From the NCBI RefSeq assembly GCF_001677475.2, contig NZ_CP015229.1: a DNA stretch of 64,000 nt; one strand, written 5' to 3'. Each line of letters starts with the position of its first letter. Position 1 is the first letter of the stretch. The notes under the pieces are model-generated. The model searched no databases, was not told where the DNA came from, and worked only from the letters and a program-made list of their open reading frames with translations. Source of the stretch: Escherichia coli (GTDB taxonomy: Bacteria; Pseudomonadota; Gammaproteobacteria; Enterobacterales; Enterobacteriaceae). The position numbers and the translations under genes were made by a program. Positions 18,028-61,090 of this stretch are shown in pieces.

Positions 18028-19453
<1,426 letters not shown>

Positions 19454-19546
19454 GCTATCATCATTAACTTTATTTATTACCGTCATTCATTTCTGAATGT
19501 CTGTTTACCCCTATTTCAACCGGATGCCTCGCATCCGGTTTTTTTA
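19454..19546 (+). ncRNA. micF: MicF antisense sRNA
   Basis: Matches the MicF sequence as I recall it (GCTATCATCATTAACTTTATTTATTACCGTCATTCATTTCTGAATGTCTG...), ending in hairpin ccggatgcctcgcatccgg plus T7 run. Confidence 0.9.
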
Positions 19547-19856
19547 CCCTTCTTTACACACTTTTCATTATTCTGTGCTACCACAGAAAAACTATAACGC
19601 TTGTTAATTATTTCACAAATAATTAACATCAGCATAATTTCCAGCAATCTTCGTTTATTTGCAATTAATTTCGTTAGGCTTTTTGTAGGTTATTTGTACA
19701 GCAAAATGGCGCTTGTACATCTATTTCCCCCAATGCAGGATGATAAATATCACGGGAGAATAGAGAATCATCAATCAGGTAAGAGTCTGGAATTTCACAC
19801 TGTACCCTTTATACTGCCCTATCACTTCGCGAAGTTTTAACAGGTCATAAACACGA

Positions 19857-47645: not shown

Positions 47646-48716
47646 ATGCCAAATACATCTATTCAATTATCTCGCTGTAATATTTTACAAAATAATAAAT
47701 TGCAAACAGCAGAAATTTACAAAGAATCACAACAAACCGCGAAACTTGAGATTTTTTGCAATGAGTTTCTAAAAATATCTCAAAGTAGATTCGGGTTATC
47801 AACCTCAGCAGACAACATAGCTAATTTATTGGCTTTTTTCACGAAAGCCTCAGATGAAATTGATAGTATCAAAACCCAAAAAATTGACGTTCACAGTTAT
47901 GGTTTCGTACCAATAAGACATTTTGTCGAGCATGTCATAACGTATAAAAATGAATTTGCAGAAGATTATGAACCCTATACCCTTACCTTTACCCGAGGTG
48001 AAAACAACGAAGGTGTTTTGAGTATCGAAAGCAAAGAAGGGTTTCTTTCAGAAAGAACAATAAATTTAAATGAATATGAAACTGCAATTAACATCATCAA
48101 TGAGCATGTTGCAAAAGAAAATATCAATAACAAGATCCAAACATTGACAGACAAAGACACACCAAAAATAACCAACTCTGACAAAATTTATAAATTTATC
48201 CACGAGTTAAATATAAGAACTCAACTTTACAGCAAGCAAAAAGAATATACAGACCTGCTACTACATTCTGAGAAAAATACAGAATGGTACAAATACACAT
48301 CCTCCGAGGAACGCTATGATGTATTTAAGAATTCTTCTAAAAAAATTGAAAATACCTACAAGCAAATTGTGCAAGCGCAGAAAAAATTGAAGCAAATGAA
48401 ATACATCAATAAATTAAGTGGTGAGCTTATCGATATCGCCGACAAAAAGTTAGCACCATTAATAAATGATAGTTTCAGCTATACACGAGATTTCTTTGCT
48501 TACTCAAAAAATGAAAAAAATATCTTCACATTTGATAATTCTAAGTTTTTAGATCCAAAGGAAAAAGAAGGTTTAATGATACAACACAGCAATGGGCAAC
48601 TGGTTATTACTGGTAAATATTGCCCTGAAGGTATGCAAACAGCATTCACCCAAGAACAATATGATAAATTAATAAGATACATTAATATTTTCTTTACTTT
48701 CCAGAAATGCGAATAA
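47646..48716 (+). CDS. uncharacterised soluble protein (about 356 aa) on an AT-rich single-gene islet; no recognisable domain
   Basis: Uninterrupted 1.1 kb reading frame in about 30% GC DNA, where random frames are stop-rich; AAGGA Shine-Dalgarno 7 nt before ATG at 47646 (the track ORF begins at an upstream TTG at 47610); K/E/N-rich, no signal peptide or TM segment. Confidence 0.7.
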   Translation: MPNTSIQLSRCNILQNNKLQTAEIYKESQQTAKLEIFCNEFLKISQSRFGLSTSADNIANLLAFFTKASDEIDSIKTQKIDVHSYGFVPIRHFVEHVITYKNEFAEDYEPYTLTFTRGENNEGVLSIESKEGFLSERTINLNEYETAINIINEHVAKENINNKIQTLTDKDTPKITNSDKIYKFIHELNIRTQLYSKQKEYTDLLLHSEKNTEWYKYTSSEERYDVFKNSSKKIENTYKQIVQAQKKLKQMKYINKLSGELIDIADKKLAPLINDSFSYTRDFFAYSKNEKNIFTFDNSKFLDPKEKEGLMIQHSNGQLVITGKYCPEGMQTAFTQEQYDKLIRYINIFFTFQKCE

Positions 48717-48903
48717 TACTGTACATTATAAACTGCATTACAATTTATTATTGAGCCCTATTCATACTGTTTAAAGAATAACAATACCCAGTGTTAGCTT
48801 TCCTAACAAATGAGTTTTACGCAAATATGTTGGCATCTTTTTTAACAGGATGCTCAGGTGAATGAATAGAATAACCGGTAGTAGCATTATTTCGCTTTAG
48901 CTG

Positions 48904-51648: not shown

Positions 51649-55713
<4,065 letters not shown>

Positions 55714-55720
55714 TCTTCAC

Positions 55721-55746
55721 TGGCAGGACGTGAAAACCTCCTGCCA
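55721..55746 (+). terminator. stem-loop after glpC
   Basis: tggcagga / tcctgcca stem 8 nt after the glpC stop; weak T-tract. Confidence 0.4.
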
Positions 55747-56085
55747 TTCATATCCACGCTGAATATTTCAGAATAACTGCTCTCTATTTTTTTACTTAAC
55801 TTCACATTTCCATGTATTGACACTCGCTATCTAAAAGTAGCTTTATTATGTCCCTTCAGAAACTAATTGATATAAATAATAATATTCACCACCACATTAC
55901 CTAAAAGAATAATAATATACGATTATTAAAAATTAAACATATTCACCAGCATTATATGTTTAGAATTACTTTGATAGTTCCCGCAAAAAAAATGTTTATA
56001 AATATTTATTTGCGTATATAATCCCGTCTGTTTAATATATTAAAAACATAATATTATTCCATTCATCAATATAAAAGGAACTTAA

Positions 56086-56676
56086 GTGAAAGCAAAAATT
56101 CTCATTCCATCGTTATCTGTTCTCTTGATGGGTATATCGGCTTTAAGTTATGCGGACACTCCTGCCGGTAAAGTTCATTTCAATGGGCTAATTACTGCAT
56201 CAACTTGTGACTTAGAGCAAGGTACAGGCAAGGGACAGAATGACCAGACCGTAACGCTTCAGACAGTGGACGTTGCTGATTTTGGCGCTGCTGTAGGTAA
56301 TGAAGCAGCAAACTCTGCAACAGATTTTAATATTAATCTTACCGGTTGTACGACACAATTAGGTAGCATCAACCTTGAATTTAGCGGTAATACCACCGAT
56401 GCCACCGATAATACAGCCCTGGCAATTGACACCGGTGCAGATAAAGCAACAGGCGTAGGGATTCGTATTTATCGTGAAGGTGCTTCTTCACCGATTAATT
56501 TTGCTACTGATCGTACCGATGCAGAAAGCTCTGCGGTAACACTTTCATCCATTAGCCCAACCAATGGTGATGGCAAGCATAGCTTTAATTATAAAGCGGT
56601 TTATGTCAGAACAGCAGATACAATTACTGAAGGTCAGGGTAACGCGACTGCGGATTATCGTATCGCTTACTATTAA
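56086..56676 (+). CDS. fimbrial major subunit (chaperone-usher pilin)
   Basis: 196 aa; GTG start with AAAAGGA Shine-Dalgarno; signal peptide; Cys pair typical of type 1-like pilins; C-terminal donor-strand-like YRIAYY. Confidence 0.8.
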   Translation: MKAKILIPSLSVLLMGISALSYADTPAGKVHFNGLITASTCDLEQGTGKGQNDQTVTLQTVDVADFGAAVGNEAANSATDFNINLTGCTTQLGSINLEFSGNTTDATDNTALAIDTGADKATGVGIRIYREGASSPINFATDRTDAESSAVTLSSISPTNGDGKHSFNYKAVYVRTADTITEGQGNATADYRIAYY

Positions 56677-56733
56677 TGATATATTTCAAAGGGGTGAAAT
56701 TACTACACCCCTTAATTACTAAAGTAAAAATGC

Positions 56734-57438
56734 ATGAAAAAATACTCTTTATTACTGATTGTATTATTTGCCAACATTGCTTACGGGGGAGTGGTTATTC
56801 GGGGAACAAGAATTATTTACCCGTCCACGGCGCGGGAAATCCCTGTAGAAGTGACGAATCAAGATAAAGAGCGTTCATACCTTGTTCAGGCCTGGATGAG
56901 TGACTTTGCCAATGATGCAAATAAGAAAACGCCATTTGTACTCACTCCGCCGTTAGTTAAACTGGAAGCTCAGAAAAACACGCTTTTCCGCTTAATCTAT
57001 ACCGGTACGCAAAAATTGCCGGAGGATCGTGAATCCATTTTTTGGCTAAATGTAAAATCCATTCCTGGGATGTCAGAAGAGTCTTCACAGGTGCCGAATC
57101 AACTGCAATTTGCCGTTCAGAGCCAGCTCAAAGTTTTTTATCGTCCGCTGGGGCTTGCTGATGATGCCAATACCGCCTATAGCAAAATCGCTTTCCGGAT
57201 ACAAGGCAACAGGCTAATCGCCAAAAACCCAACACCTTACTTTGTCACCTTCCGCACTCTGGCAGTGAATGGTAAGCCCGTATCGTATAAAGGAAACGGC
57301 GTTGTGAAAATGATGCTCAATCCATTTGGCGAGCAAACATATACTCTGACCGCATCCTCTTCTGAAAACAATAGTGTTGAATGGTCAGCAATAAATGATT
57401 ACGGCGGTACGACAAATACCATAAAGACCCGGTTATAA
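56734..57438 (+). CDS. periplasmic fimbrial chaperone (PapD/FimC-like)
   Basis: 234 aa with signal peptide and conserved N-terminal chaperone motif (GTRIIYP...); between pilin and usher genes. Confidence 0.85.
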   Translation: MKKYSLLLIVLFANIAYGGVVIRGTRIIYPSTAREIPVEVTNQDKERSYLVQAWMSDFANDANKKTPFVLTPPLVKLEAQKNTLFRLIYTGTQKLPEDRESIFWLNVKSIPGMSEESSQVPNQLQFAVQSQLKVFYRPLGLADDANTAYSKIAFRIQGNRLIAKNPTPYFVTFRTLAVNGKPVSYKGNGVVKMMLNPFGEQTYTLTASSSENNSVEWSAINDYGGTTNTIKTRL

Positions 57439-57499
57439 GCGCAATAGATTGTTCAGGAAAACGACAGGAATTATCTCGTACAAGGAAAGTAATAATAAC

Positions 57500-59986
57500 A
57501 TGAACTCCTTACATCTATTTTGTTTGCATGTTGTTGTAACAATAGTGCCATTGACACTGTTACAAAACAGTTACGCCCGCGAGGTGTTTAATTACAAACT
57601 TTTAGAGTCAGGGGCTTCAGAAAGCGAACTGGAAGCCATTAAAAATTTTGACAAAAATGATGGCCTGGTGCCCGGTAAATATCGGGTCGATGTTTTTATG
57701 AATAATCAACGCATTACACGTAAAGATATTGATTTTGTCGTTGATGATAAAGCGAACAAACTCTTACCTGTGTTAAGCAAAAAAGAGTATATCGCTATGG
57801 GGGTTGCCGATAGCCCCTCCGCGTCATTTGCCACGCTGGCAAATGACGATATCGTGACGAATTTAGAAAATTATATTCCCTTTTCATCAGTGCGCTTTGA
57901 GCAAAGTTCGCTGCGTCTGTATCTGTCAGTTCCACAACTGGCGATGAACAATGCCGCAAACGGGTATATTGATCCGGTTTTATGGGATAATGGATTGCCT
58001 GCGTTGTTTACAAATTACTATTTTAGCGGCTCACATAATTGGCAAGATGGTCGTTCAGATAATAGTTCATATCTTAATCTGAATAATGGTATTAATCTTG
58101 GTCCCTGGCGTTTAAGAAATAACATTAATTATAACGATGGCACCTGGCAAAATATTGATACCTATATCTGGCGAAATATCCCTGCGTTAACCAGCAAACT
58201 CATTCTTGGCGATACCTGGACAGATTCAGCCGTTTTCGATAGTTTCCAGTTTCGCGGGGTAAAACTGGAAAGTAATGAAAATATGCTTCCTTACAGCATG
58301 AGAGGTTTTGCCCCCGTTATTCGCGGCGTTGCCAAAAGCAATGCGCAAGTGACGATTCGACAAAATAATTATATTATTTACCAAAGTACGGTATCCCCAG
58401 GTCCTTTCGAATTACATGATGTCTCTCCTGTTTCTTCTGGTGGGGATATGGAAGTCACGGTAAAAGAATCTGATGGTAGCGAACAAAAATATATTCAGGC
58501 ATCAGCTTCAATTCCTGTCATGCGCCGAGAAGGAGCCATGTCTTATAGTTTATCTGGCGGAGAATATCGCTCATCTGATAACTCCCATGATAAACCCGGC
58601 TTTGCTCAGGCGACGCTGATTTACGGTTTACCTGCAGGCATTACCCTCTATGGTGGCACAATTTTTGCCAGTGATTATCGTTCTGGCGCATTAGGTGCGG
58701 GTGTCGATTTACAACACTTTGGCTCGCTTTCAGCAGACATTACTCGTTCATATAGCCAGACGGTTGATGACAGTTCACAACAAGGACAATCTTACCGATT
58801 GCTTTACTCGAAAAATTTCTCCAGCACTGAAACGAATATCACGCTTGCTGGCTACCGTTATTCCACAGAGAATTTCTATACCTTTAGCGAAGCACAAAAT
58901 AATAAAGAGTATGATGAGGACGACGCGTTTTCATACCGTAACAACTATAACCGCCATCGTCGGTTACAACTTACCATTAATCAGGCGATCCCCTCGTTTG
59001 GTCAGTTCAATATTTCAGGCTATCAACAAGATTATTGGGGACTCGGGGGTAAAGAGCGCAGCCTCAGCGTAGGGTATAGTCATAGTTGGGAAAATGTGAG
59101 TTTTAGCCTAAGTTATTTACTGACACGAATGCCAGACAATAATAAGAACGATCAACAACTCTCACTTTCTGTCAGCGTTCCACTAGGAAAATGGTTACCT
59201 GGTGCGCATGTTAATTACAATAACACCAGCAGTAATAGCGGTCACACTTTAAACAGTGTGGCGCTTAACGGTACTGCGCTGGAAGATAATAATCTCAGTT
59301 ATAGTCTGCAACAAAGTCATGGCGATCAAGGTTATGGTGGCAATACGTCACTCAGTTATCGCTCCAGTAAAGGCGTAATAGGCGCAGGCTGGAACTATAG
59401 TCAGGATCAACGGCAATTAAATTACAATATGCAGGGCGCAATTGTTCTGCATCCGTATGGATTAACCCTTGCCCAGTCTTTAGGTGAATCATCGATTCTG
59501 GTGCGCGCCCCTGATGCCAGTGGGCTGGGCATTAACAGAGGAACGTCGGTTTATACCGACTGGCGAGGATACTCCATCATCCCTTACGCATCAGCATTTC
59601 AGCGCAACCGTATCGCCATCAATACGCAAACCTTGCCGTCAAATGTTGAAATACCGGAACCGGTACAAGAAGTTATTCCTACGGAAGGCGCATTAGTCGT
59701 AGCCAATTTTTCAACGCGATATGGTCAGAAATTACTTTTAACCTTAATGCATAAAGACAAATTTGTTCCCTTTGGAGCCGTAGTCACTGCTGAAGATGAG
59801 CAAATTTCAACCCTCGTTGGGCGAAACGGTGAAACGTATTTATCCGGCGTACAAGCTAATCAAAAATGGCAAGTCAAGTGGGGAAAATCGGCCACTGAAA
59901 GTTGCCAGGTTCATATATCACCAGAACTACTTCAGACACCGCAAAACATGACTAATCTTATTATTGCCACCGCAGCGTGTGATTAA
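57500..59986 (+). CDS. outer membrane fimbrial usher (FimD/PapC-like)
   Basis: About 829 aa from ATG at 57500 (track ORF starts at upstream TTG); signal peptide, large beta-barrel, C-terminal Cys pair. Confidence 0.85.
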   Translation: MNSLHLFCLHVVVTIVPLTLLQNSYAREVFNYKLLESGASESELEAIKNFDKNDGLVPGKYRVDVFMNNQRITRKDIDFVVDDKANKLLPVLSKKEYIAMGVADSPSASFATLANDDIVTNLENYIPFSSVRFEQSSLRLYLSVPQLAMNNAANGYIDPVLWDNGLPALFTNYYFSGSHNWQDGRSDNSSYLNLNNGINLGPWRLRNNINYNDGTWQNIDTYIWRNIPALTSKLILGDTWTDSAVFDSFQFRGVKLESNENMLPYSMRGFAPVIRGVAKSNAQVTIRQNNYIIYQSTVSPGPFELHDVSPVSSGGDMEVTVKESDGSEQKYIQASASIPVMRREGAMSYSLSGGEYRSSDNSHDKPGFAQATLIYGLPAGITLYGGTIFASDYRSGALGAGVDLQHFGSLSADITRSYSQTVDDSSQQGQSYRLLYSKNFSSTETNITLAGYRYSTENFYTFSEAQNNKEYDEDDAFSYRNNYNRHRRLQLTINQAIPSFGQFNISGYQQDYWGLGGKERSLSVGYSHSWENVSFSLSYLLTRMPDNNKNDQQLSLSVSVPLGKWLPGAHVNYNNTSSNSGHTLNSVALNGTALEDNNLSYSLQQSHGDQGYGGNTSLSYRSSKGVIGAGWNYSQDQRQLNYNMQGAIVLHPYGLTLAQSLGESSILVRAPDASGLGINRGTSVYTDWRGYSIIPYASAFQRNRIAINTQTLPSNVEIPEPVQEVIPTEGALVVANFSTRYGQKLLLTLMHKDKFVPFGAVVTAEDEQISTLVGRNGETYLSGVQANQKWQVKWGKSATESCQVHISPELLQTPQNMTNLIIATAACD

Positions 59987-59990
59987 CATC

Positions 59991-61037
59991 ATGAAGATAA
60001 AAATCATCAGTACTTATAAAGTTACAAGTCGTGAAACGTTATTGCTGCTGGTTATTTTGATAGCAGCCTTTGTTCCTTCTCTTAGTTTCGCTAAAACATG
60101 TAGCTACGCCAGTGGTGGACCGGCATTAGTTTCATTTTCTGATATTTCGATCAATTCTGAATACAATAAAAATACAGCGCCAGGAACCATAATTTTTGAT
60201 CGAAGTTATCATTCCAGTCACTCAGGACAGATCACATGCTCAGACAATTATCCTGATTACAGTGAAGGGTTTGCCACTTCTCCTTCAACTTTAGTCGGCA
60301 GTGATATCTGTTTATTCAATGTACCTTTGACTAATGGAAAAAATTCTGGCATCGGCATTAAAATATTTTACGATTTAAAGAATAATAATACCACCCCAAA
60401 CAATTACTGCATGGAATACCCTAAACGTACCAGCACTGCAAATAAAAACAACTTTTCCGTTGAGGGTAATTTCCGCATACAATTAAAAGTCATCGGGGAA
60501 TTACAGAGTGGTGAAATTGATTTATCTCGTTTTAGTAATGCTGGCATTTGGTGGAATAATATTGAGGCATTTTCTCTCGAATTTAGCAACACCATTATTA
60601 ATCTTCACTCATTGAGCTGCGACCTGAACACGCCTGATGTTCCAGTTTCATTATCACCCGCCGCAGGAATTAATTCCGACATCACCTTCAAAGGGATTAA
60701 CTCCACTTCGGCGCTGGTAGATTTTAATATCGGACTAACGTGTGATCCGGGAACCAATGTCGCCATACGTTTTGAAGGCGATACGGTAAGTGGAAGTAAT
60801 AATTCAATCCTGAAGCTAACTCAACAGAATAATTCTGCCTCTGGGGTTGGCGTACAGATCTTAGATAAGAATAAAAATATTATCCCCCTTAATCAACCTG
60901 ATTACGTTTTACAGTTAAGTAATATTCAGCAATCAGCCACGTCGTTGAATTTTAGTGCGCGATATATTCAGACAGAAAGTAATGTAACGCCAGGAAAAGC
61001 GGATGCGGATGCGACATTTTATCTTTCGTTTCCGTAA
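59991..61037 (+). CDS. fimbrial tip adhesin / minor subunit (two-domain)
   Basis: About 349 aa from ATG at 59991; signal peptide; N/S/T-rich N-terminal domain plus C-terminal pilin-like domain; last gene of operon. Confidence 0.7.
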   Translation: MKIKIISTYKVTSRETLLLLVILIAAFVPSLSFAKTCSYASGGPALVSFSDISINSEYNKNTAPGTIIFDRSYHSSHSGQITCSDNYPDYSEGFATSPSTLVGSDICLFNVPLTNGKNSGIGIKIFYDLKNNNTTPNNYCMEYPKRTSTANKNNFSVEGNFRIQLKVIGELQSGEIDLSRFSNAGIWWNNIEAFSLEFSNTIINLHSLSCDLNTPDVPVSLSPAAGINSDITFKGINSTSALVDFNIGLTCDPGTNVAIRFEGDTVSGSNNSILKLTQQNNSASGVGVQILDKNKNIIPLNQPDYVLQLSNIQQSATSLNFSARYIQTESNVTPGKADADATFYLSFP

Positions 61038-61061
61038 TGAACAGCAATAAACCCGCGAACA

Positions 61062-61083
61062 GGTGCCGGAAGCATCCGGCACC
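61062..61083. terminator. stem-loop between fimbrial adhesin gene and yfaY (convergent)
   Basis: ggtgccgga-agca-tccggcacc hairpin; no U-tract on either strand. Confidence 0.4.
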
Positions 61084-61090
61084 TGGAATA

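What the first reader, a model, noticed from the sequence alone, without database searches (positions are those of the whole stretch)
55750..56085. Very AT-rich leader upstream of the fimbrial operon: likely silenced or regulated promoter
About 340 bp of A/T tracts (for example gcaaaaaaaatgtttataaatatttatttgcgtatataat) with no coding potential precede the pilin gene. This is typical of H-NS-bound cryptic fimbrial promoters. I saw no clear fim-like invertible-switch inverted repeats, but short repeats could be missed by eye.
Basis: inference. Interest (0 to 1): 0.3.

Follow-up and report, generated by a model that had tools for sequence, protein, structure and literature searches.

The report
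AT-rich fimbrial operon promoter leader
This is the ordinary, very AT-rich promoter region of a horizontally acquired fimbrial operon in a divergent Escherichia strain; it probably holds one conserved promoter that is kept silent by the nucleoid protein H-NS, and it shows no sign of an invertible or methylation switch.

Summary
Window 55750-56085 has 24.7% GC and is the most AT-rich 336-bp stretch of the 64-kb window (mean 50.5%). It has no credible coding potential and no Rfam match. It lies in the 372-bp gap between glpC and the pilin gene of a four-gene chaperone-usher operon. The operon is a 5.4-kb, 41%-GC island that replaces the rpnE-rhm genes of typical E. coli. It is absent from all 5,426 complete RefSeq E. 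coli genomes.

An ortholog with 80% identical operon DNA, at the same site, shows uneven conservation. The distal leader and the stretch downstream of the -10 are about 45% identical. The block 55985-56022 is 79% identical. It holds an A8 tract, TTTATA, a 16-nt spacer and TATAAT. This is the best candidate promoter.

Inverted repeats do not exceed chance. Sixteen assemblies are colinear, no recombinase gene is adjacent and there is no GATC site. This argues against fim-type and pap-type switches.

Length and composition match the K-12 elf, yad, yeh and yra leaders. Published work reports elf, yad and yeh as H-NS-repressed. H-NS silencing here is a well-founded analogy, not a demonstration. The finding is a new member of a known kind and of low interest.

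The parts
55714..56085 (+). Whole glpC-pilin intergenic leader (372 bp, 27.4% GC)
   Evidence: The ortholog's gap is 375 bp.
55721..55746 (+). glpC terminator-like hairpin (8+2 bp stem). In this lineage it is followed by TTCATAT rather than a T-run.
   Evidence: I11.: -15.9 kcal/mol, z=-3.5. The ortholog L003 89-114 has a canonical terminator with a T-run.
55750..56085 (.). The AT-rich stretch as reported (24.7% GC), the lowest-GC part of the 64-kb window
55787..55793 (+). T7 homopolymer in the distal leader, T6 or T7 among strains
55939..55984 (+). Proximal upstream block (about -90 to -45 from the inferred start). It is moderately conserved (61%) and is a candidate site for an activator or anti-silencer. 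No factor is assigned.
   Evidence: BLAST homology to the ortholog begins at 55939.
55985..55992 (+). A8 tract directly upstream of the -35, in the position of an UP element (about -44 to -37). It is A7 or A8 among strains.
   Evidence: The UP-element reading is an inference.
55995..56000 (+). Candidate -35 hexamer TTTATA (TTTCCA in the ortholog)
56017..56022 (+). Candidate -10 hexamer TATAAT (perfect consensus), identical in the ortholog with the same 16-nt spacer
56029..56085 (+). Inferred 5' UTR of about 57 nt. It is poorly conserved and has no significant RNA structure.
   Evidence: z=+0.86; 56023-56070, which spans most of it, is 44% identical. The start-site position is inferred from the -10 hexamer.
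56075..56079 (+). Shine-Dalgarno AAGGA, 6 nt before the GTG start. It is shared with the ortholog and with the Citrobacter paralogs.
56086..56676 (+). Major fimbrial subunit (196 aa, GTG start)
   Evidence: (PF00419).
56734..57438 (+). PapD-like periplasmic chaperone
57449..59986 (+). Outer-membrane usher. The ORF limits are given here; relatives are called at 828 aa.
59964..61037 (+). Two-domain fimbrial protein, a putative tip adhesin. The ORF limits are given here; relatives are called at 348 aa.
61060..61085 (.). GC-rich inverted repeat between the convergent adhesin and yfaY genes, at the right edge of the island
   Evidence: Sequence read. Homology to typical E. coli resumes at 61113.

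Best explanation
The region is the promoter and regulatory leader of a horizontally acquired four-gene chaperone-usher fimbrial operon of the gamma1 type (Fim/Lpf-like). After the glpC terminator hairpin (55721-55746) come about 240 bp of very AT-rich, fast-evolving DNA. Next comes a conserved sigma-70 promoter: an A8 UP-like tract (55985-55992), a -35 TTTATA (55995-56000), a 16-nt spacer and a -10 TATAAT (56017-56022). The inferred transcription start is near 56029. It is followed by an unstructured 5' UTR of about 57 nt, the Shine-Dalgarno AAGGA and the GTG start at 56086. The most likely mode of control is xenogeneic silencing. H-NS, with or without StpA, would polymerise over the AT-rich leader and the 41%-GC operon and occlude an intrinsically good promoter. 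Relief would come from temperature or from anti-silencers of the SlyA or LeuO kind. Shown here: the composition, the island status, the conserved promoter block and the absence of switch features. Inferred: the start site, the UP function, H-NS occupancy and conditional de-repression.
For: The stretch is the lowest-GC part of the window, with TpA steps three times enriched. The operon is a 5.4-kb, 41%-GC island that replaces rpnE and rhm. It is absent from 5,426 complete E. coli genomes. In the ortholog with 80% identical operon DNA, the gap length is preserved (372 against 375 bp). The 55985-56022 block is 79% identical. The distal leader is 46% identical, 56023-56070 is 44%, and pilin third codon positions are 58%. 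In each lineage the best + strand promoter match falls at the homologous position with the same 16-nt spacer. The hexamers are invariant in 12 strain sequences. Pilin codon positions 1+2 are 92.6% identical against 57.9% at position 3, so the gene is functional and must be expressed at some time. The K-12 cryptic fimbrial leaders have nearly the same size and GC: elfA 355 bp/27.0%, yadN 369/26.6%, yraH 400/27.3%, yehD 292/24.3%, against 372/27.4% here. PMC5797941 reports elf, sfm, yad and yeh as poorly expressed, H-NS-repressed and SlyA-activated. H-NS binds the F9 fimbrial promoter directly (PMC3966885). H-NS prefers AT-rich DNA with TpA steps (PMC2094087).
Against: There are no binding or expression data for this locus. 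No match to tCGATAAATT occurs at up to 2 mismatches in the leader, where shuffles give 1.5; the yadN and yraH leaders also have none. AA/TT helical phasing is not significant, P about 0.09. Promoter-like hexamer pairs are no more frequent than in shuffles, 4 against 4.7, so the promoter call rests on conservation in only two diverged lineages. F9 shows that fimbrial start sites can lie much further upstream, 251 nt in that case. The leader is not shared with the Citrobacter paralog cassettes.
Confidence: 0.62

Rival explanations
1. The leader is an ordinary regulated promoter whose main control is a specific transcription factor rather than H-NS. The factor would bind the moderately conserved -90 to -45 block or the A-tract. 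AT-richness would then be only a compositional legacy of the donor.
For: Block 55939-55984 is alignable and 61% identical between orthologs, whereas the distal leader is 46%. The leader has no strong H-NS nucleation motif and no significant A-tract phasing.
Against: I recognised no motif of a known regulator by eye, and no systematic motif scan was run. No regulator gene lies in or next to the operon. A specific activator and H-NS silencing are not mutually exclusive; they usually act together, as with SlyA, LeuO or Ler.
Confidence: 0.2
2. The real promoter lies in the distal leader, for example TTCAGA-17-AATAAT at 55855-55883, TTCACC-17-AATAAT at 55885-55913, or the TTGACA at 55819. That would give a long 5' UTR of 170-260 nt, as in F9 fimbriae.
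For: Two distal 9-of-12 promoter matches are found. In F9 the start site lies 251 nt upstream of the start codon (PMC3966885).
Against: The distal leader is the least conserved part, 46% identity, and these hexamers are not preserved in the ortholog. The count of such matches equals the shuffle expectation.
Confidence: 0.1
3. The leader is a phase-variable switch. Candidate forms are site-specific inversion (fimS type), Dam/Lrp methylation (pap type) or slipped-strand changes in a homopolymer tract.
For: Two homopolymers are length-polymorphic among strains, T6/T7 at 55787 and A7/A8 at 55985. Phase variation is common in fimbriae.
Against: Perfect 9-mer inverted repeats flanking 100-450 bp number 1 against 0.97 in shuffles, P=0.52. 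Twelve of 12 same-lineage and 4 of 4 ortholog assemblies have the same orientation. No recombinase gene is adjacent. The gap has no GATC site. Neither tract lies in the -35/-10 spacer, so a 1-bp change does not alter hexamer spacing.
Confidence: 0.04
4. The leader is non-functional spacer DNA and the operon is transcribed mainly by read-through from glpABC. In this lineage the glpC hairpin lacks a T-run.
For: The hairpin at 55721-55746 is followed by TTCATAT, and the terminator scan does not call it. The genes are co-directional.
Against: A promoter block is conserved above the neutral level. The ortholog has a canonical glpC terminator yet keeps the same leader architecture. A 372-bp untranslated AT-rich stretch would favour Rho-dependent termination; this last point is established knowledge, not tested here.
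Confidence: 0.04

Closest known systems
Leaders of the cryptic chaperone-usher operons of E. coli K-12: elfA/ycbQ, yadN, yehD and sfmA are reported as H-NS-repressed (Korea et al. 2010, as reported in PMC5797941 and PMC3559732); the yraH leader was used here for composition only
   Same: All are non-coding gaps of 290-400 bp directly upstream of the major subunit gene. Their GC is 24-27%: elfA 355 bp/27.0%, yadN 369/26.6%, yraH 400/27.3%, yehD 292/24.3%, against 372/27.4% here. TpA frequencies are similar, 0.11-0.13. No local regulator or recombinase gene was seen next to the fetched major-subunit genes.
   Different: There is no sequence homology to any of them (no match in distant mode). The operon sits at a different chromosomal site (glpC | yfaY) and is absent from E. 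coli sensu stricto complete genomes. H-NS dependence is demonstrated for those leaders and untested here.
F9 (ydeQ-T) fimbrial promoter of uropathogenic E. coli CFT073 (PMC3966885)
   Same: It belongs to a type-1-like (Fim-related) fimbrial operon. It has a sigma-70 promoter with a good -10 and a weaker -35. It is directly bound by H-NS and repressed at 37 C. That is the behaviour predicted here.
   Different: The F9 start site is 251 nt upstream of the start codon; here the conserved promoter predicts about 57 nt. F9 carries predicted H-NS motifs; this leader has none at up to 2 mismatches.
fimS invertible switch of type 1 fimbriae
   Same: It has a comparable size (314 bp) and is an AT-rich promoter-bearing segment in front of a gamma1-type pilin gene. 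These facts about fimS are from established knowledge.
   Different: This leader has no 9-bp flanking inverted repeats above chance, no fimB/fimE-like genes and no orientation polymorphism.
lpf (long polar fimbriae) regulatory region of E. coli O157:H7, silenced by H-NS and relieved by Ler (from my own knowledge, not checked in the library)
   Same: LpfA, LpfB and LpfC are among the best NCBIfam matches of this operon's pilin, chaperone and usher. It too is a horizontally acquired, AT-rich fimbrial island.
   Different: All scores are far below the equivalog cut-offs, for example usher 700 bits against 1271. This is therefore not lpf. No Ler or LEE context is known here.

Membership tests
H-NS-silenced (xenogeneically silenced) AT-rich promoter regions | AT content far above the genome average over the promoter and adjoining genes | tested here: met
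   GC is 24.7% against a 50.5% window mean, the lowest in 64 kb. The operon is 41-42% GC.
H-NS-silenced (xenogeneically silenced) AT-rich promoter regions | Horizontally acquired or accessory DNA | tested here: met
   The island 55707-61112 replaces rpnE-rhm of typical E. coli. It is absent from 5,426 complete genomes. Related cassettes occur at other sites in Citrobacter.
H-NS-silenced (xenogeneically silenced) AT-rich promoter regions | High-affinity nucleation motif tCGATAAATT (PMC2094087) | tested here: inconclusive
   The leader has 0 hits at up to 2 mismatches, where shuffles give 1.5. The yadN and yraH leaders also have 0, and 12 hits lie inside the operon's coding DNA.
H-NS-silenced (xenogeneically silenced) AT-rich promoter regions | Intrinsic curvature (helically phased A-tracts) | tested here: inconclusive
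   AA/TT power at a 10-11 bp period is 0.81 against 0.44 +/- 0.26 in shuffles, P=0.09. No wedge-model curvature was computed.
H-NS-silenced (xenogeneically silenced) AT-rich promoter regions | H-NS occupancy, and de-repression in an hns mutant | not testable with these tools
   This needs ChIP, EMSA or reporter assays.
fimS-type invertible promoter element | Inverted repeats flanking a promoter segment of about 300 bp | tested here: not met
   The best repeats are 9-nt perfect or 20-nt 80% pairs at shuffle expectation, P=0.52. The right arm of the 9-nt pair I18 lies inside the pilin CDS.
fimS-type invertible promoter element | Adjacent tyrosine recombinase genes (fimB/fimE-like) | tested here: not met
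   The neighbours are glpA, glpB, glpC and yfaY, yfaZ, nudI.
fimS-type invertible promoter element | Both orientations seen among genomes or assemblies | tested here: not met
   All 12 same-lineage sequences and all 4 ortholog sequences are colinear.
pap-type Dam/Lrp methylation switch | Two GATC sites within Lrp sites in the regulatory region, plus papI/papB-like genes | tested here: not met
   There is no GATC in 55714-56085 or in the ortholog leader. There is no small regulator ORF.
Slipped-strand promoter phase variation (homopolymer in the -35/-10 spacer) | A variable repeat tract inside the promoter spacer | tested here: not met
   The A7/A8 tract ends 2 nt upstream of the -35 and the T6/T7 tract lies 200 bp upstream. 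The spacer is a fixed 16 nt in all sequences.
Chaperone-usher fimbrial operon, Fim/Lpf/Bcf-like (gamma1-type by best hits) | Pilin, PapD chaperone, usher and adhesin domains in one operon | tested here: met
   Pfam PF00419, PF00345/PF02753 and PF00577/PF13954/PF13953.
Named fimbrial equivalogs (Lpf, Fim, Sti, Bcf, Stk and others) | Score above the NCBIfam curated cut-off | tested here: not met
   Every hit is far below its cut-off, for example LpfA 55.7 bits against 221 and usher 739 against 995.
Known structured RNAs (Rfam 15) | A covariance-model match | tested here: not met
   The best E-values are 2.2 and 8.4, both to eukaryotic families and far below gathering scores. The inferred 5' UTR fold has z=+0.86.

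The most novel reading that the evidence does not exclude
The strain-to-strain length changes of the two homopolymers (A7/A8 abutting the -35 and T6/T7 in the distal leader), or the T-run-less glpC hairpin, could tune this operon in an unusual way. One form would be an UP-element or activator-phasing rheostat. Another would be coupling of fimbrial expression to anaerobic glycerol-3-phosphate metabolism by read-through from glpABC. Either would replace plain H-NS silencing as the main control.
Probability: 0.06. Interest if true: 0.4.

Novelty: new member of a known kind. Interest (0 to 1): 0.15.

Why it matters
The finding matters little beyond annotation. It documents one more AT-rich leader of the H-NS-target type, in front of an uncharacterised fimbrial operon that is restricted to non-classical Escherichia lineages. 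It also pins down a concrete, testable promoter (55995-56022). It may be useful to anyone studying adhesin repertoires of the cryptic Escherichia clades, or using such islands as clade markers. It does not open or settle a general question.

Tried and rejected
Rfam scan of 55300-56500 at E up to 10: only noise.

RNA folding of the inferred 5' UTR in four lineages: no structure beyond shuffles.

Tandem repeat search, prompted by a 57-bp spacing of A-tracts and of the ATATTCACCA(C/G)CA repeat: only a trivial 10-bp, 2-copy hit, and the repeat is not conserved in the ortholog.

Inverted-repeat shuffle test for a fim-like switch: at chance level.

GATC search for a pap-like switch: none.

H-NS 10-mer scan: no hit, but shown to be uninformative by the K-12 benchmark.

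AA/TT phasing: not significant.

First scan of GTDB species representatives with pilin peptides: nothing found.

Search of Wurpel et al. 2013 for a fimbrial type at glpC/yfaY: not mentioned.

Flanking direct or inverted repeats at the island borders: none of 9 nt or more.

The small 21-aa ORF (55956-56021): rejected as a gene. It has no SD, and the ortholog has GTG, a different length and a different frame.

By-eye reading for CRP, FNR and IHF sites gave nothing above what AT-rich DNA yields. This was not tested formally.

Full report

Yes. The quoted sequence sits at 55983-56022. The stretch 55750-56085 has 24.7% GC. The 64-kb window averages 50.5% GC for 336-bp windows (sd 6.6%). The absolute minimum of the whole window (24.1%) begins at 55762. 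TpA steps are three times enriched.

The full gap between the stop of glpC (55713) and the GTG start of the pilin gene (56086) is 372 bp. No ORF of 40 aa or more lies within it. The only internal ORF is 21 aa, has no ribosome-binding site and is not preserved in the ortholog. Rfam finds nothing.

The downstream genes are a Fimbrial-domain pilin, a PapD-type chaperone, an usher and a two-domain adhesin-like subunit. Their best NCBIfam matches are Lpf, Fim and Bcf. All scores are far below the equivalog cut-offs, so this is an unnamed Fim/Lpf-like chaperone-usher operon.

**2. Context**

The window's proteins are identical to ANO90035-ANO90042 of an 'E. coli'-labelled 5.50-Mb contig. The same pilin occurs in E. 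ruysiae and in unnamed Escherichia clades. The flanks are 96.4% identical to a typical E. coli chromosome.

Homology to typical E. coli stops at 55706 and resumes at 61113. In between, the window carries a 5.4-kb, 41%-GC segment holding the leader and the four fimbrial genes. Typical E. coli has rpnE(yfaD)-yfaU-yfaV-rhmD-yfaX at that position. The junctions fall in the last codons of glpC and yfaY. No flanking repeats of 9 nt or more are present.

Neither megablast nor sensitive blastn finds the leader or the pilin gene in any of 5,426 complete RefSeq E. coli genomes.

An ortholog was found in metagenome contigs L003-L006. It has 88% pilin identity and 80% operon DNA identity. Its yfaY and yfaZ are 91% identical to E. 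coli. It sits at the same glpC | yfaY site.

More distant cassettes, with 79-80% pilin identity, sit at two other chromosomal sites in Citrobacter braakii and C. portucalensis. Their homology to the window begins only at the Shine-Dalgarno sequence. The AT-rich leader is therefore not a conserved part of the cassette. Each copy has its own AT-rich leader.

**3. Anatomy of the leader**

- A stable hairpin directly follows glpC (55721-55746, z=-3.5). In the ortholog the equivalent hairpin is a canonical intrinsic terminator.
- Between the two orthologous lineages the gap length is preserved, 372 against 375 bp, but identity is very uneven. The distal leader 55761-55938 is 46% identical, 55939-55984 is 61%, 55985-56022 is 79% and 56023-56070 is 44%. 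For comparison, pilin third codon positions are 58% identical and positions 1+2 are 92.6%.
It contains an A8 tract (55985-55992), TTTATA (55995-56000), a 16-nt spacer and TATAAT (56017-56022).
- In both lineages this is the best + strand sigma-70 match in the gap, scoring 10 of 12, with the same spacer length and at the homologous position.
- The hexamers are invariant in 12 strain sequences.
- Promoter-like matches as such are no more frequent than in shuffled sequence. The argument is therefore the phylogenetic footprint, not the match itself.
- The inferred start near 56029 gives an unstructured 5' UTR of about 57 nt.

**4. Switch mechanisms tested and not found**

- Inverted repeats flanking 100-450 bp are at chance level: one perfect 9-mer pair against 0.97 in shuffles, P=0.52.
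- All 12 same-lineage and all 4 ortholog assemblies are colinear.
- The neighbouring genes are glpABC and yfaY, yfaZ, nudI. None is a recombinase.
- The gap has no GATC site.
- Two homopolymers vary among strains, T6/T7 at 55787 and A7/A8 at 55985. Neither lies in the -35/-10 spacer.

**5. H-NS**

This part cannot be tested directly, so I benchmarked it. The leaders of the K-12 cryptic fimbrial operons have almost the same size and composition as this one:

| Leader | Length (bp) | GC |
|---|---|---|
| elfA | 355 | 27.0% |
| yadN | 369 | 26.6% |
| yraH | 400 | 27.3% |
| yehD | 292 | 24.3% |
| this window | 372 | 27.4% |

PMC5797941 reports that elf, sfm, yad and yeh are poorly expressed, H-NS-repressed and SlyA-activated. 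PMC3559732 states that many commensal chaperone-usher operons are cryptic and H-NS-repressed. PMC3966885 shows direct H-NS binding to the F9 promoter.

The Lang et al. 10-mer tCGATAAATT (PMC2094087) has no match at up to 2 mismatches in this leader. The same is true for the yadN and yraH leaders, so this is uninformative. A-tract phasing is not significant.

H-NS silencing is therefore the best-supported mechanism by composition and close analogy, but it is not demonstrated. Strong purifying selection on the pilin says the operon is functional. Any silencing must therefore be conditional.

**6. Verdict**

This is a new member of a well-known kind, an AT-rich leader of a horizontally acquired fimbrial operon. 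The added value is a defined candidate promoter, the island boundaries and a phylogenetic distribution outside classical E. coli. Interest is low.

Noticed in passing
window 55707-61112: The leader and fimbrial operon form a 5.4-kb, 41%-GC island that replaces the rpnE(yfaD)-yfaU-yfaV-rhmD-yfaX segment of typical E. coli. The junctions lie in the last codons of glpC and yfaY. There are no flanking repeats. The island is absent from all 5,426 complete RefSeq E. coli genomes, but the exact pilin occurs in hundreds of Escherichia contigs, including E. ruysiae and unnamed clades.
   Followed up: yes
L007 6001-10967 and L010 6001-10967: Related four-gene cassettes with 79-80% pilin identity sit at two other chromosomal sites in Citrobacter. 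One lies between an acetyltransferase gene and DUF465/mdoG (C. braakii). The other lies between ampC-ampR and frdD (C. portucalensis). Homology to the window starts only at the Shine-Dalgarno sequence, so each copy has a different AT-rich leader.
   Followed up: partly
L007 5654-5845 (also called in L008 and L009): The 525-bp leader of the C. braakii paralog contains a called 63-aa ORF with no Pfam hit, and two GATC sites 69 bp apart (5722, 5791). The window, L003 and L010 leaders have no GATC. This could be a different regulatory arrangement.
   Followed up: no
window 47193-48903: A segment of about 1.7 kb between inaA and glpQ is absent from the reference E. coli locus L013. It has very low GC (minimum 28%). 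It holds a 368-aa ORF (47610-48716) and a 72-aa ORF, neither with a Pfam match.
   Followed up: partly
window 19120-19856 and 41608-42296: These are the other strongly AT-rich spots of the window. One is the ompC-type porin | rcsD gap. The other is the region upstream of the yfaL/ehaC-type autotransporter gene. Both are classic AT-rich regulatory gaps.
   Followed up: partly
window 55721-55755 and L003 89-124: The glpC hairpin is followed by TTCATAT in the window lineage, with no T-run, and the terminator scan does not call it. The ortholog has a 10-bp stem plus a T-run. Some read-through from glpABC into the leader is conceivable in the window lineage.
   Followed up: partly
window 55787-55793 and 55985-55992: Homopolymer length polymorphisms occur among 12 strain sequences: T6/T7 and A7/A8, the latter with an adjacent A/T substitution at 55992. 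Seven other single-base differences are scattered through the leader. The -35 and -10 hexamers are unchanged.
   Followed up: yes
window 55650-55713 and 61091-61112: The last roughly 60 bp of glpC drop to about 80% identity with typical E. coli, against about 94% upstream. yfaY has a different C-terminal end (401 aa against 400). This suggests the island was exchanged by homologous recombination within the flanking genes.
   Followed up: partly
window 54448-54522: The mechanical ORF for glpC starts at 54448 (421 aa). Relatives are called at 396 aa, starting near 54523 and overlapping glpB. The first 25 codons of the listed ORF are probably not translated.
   Followed up: no
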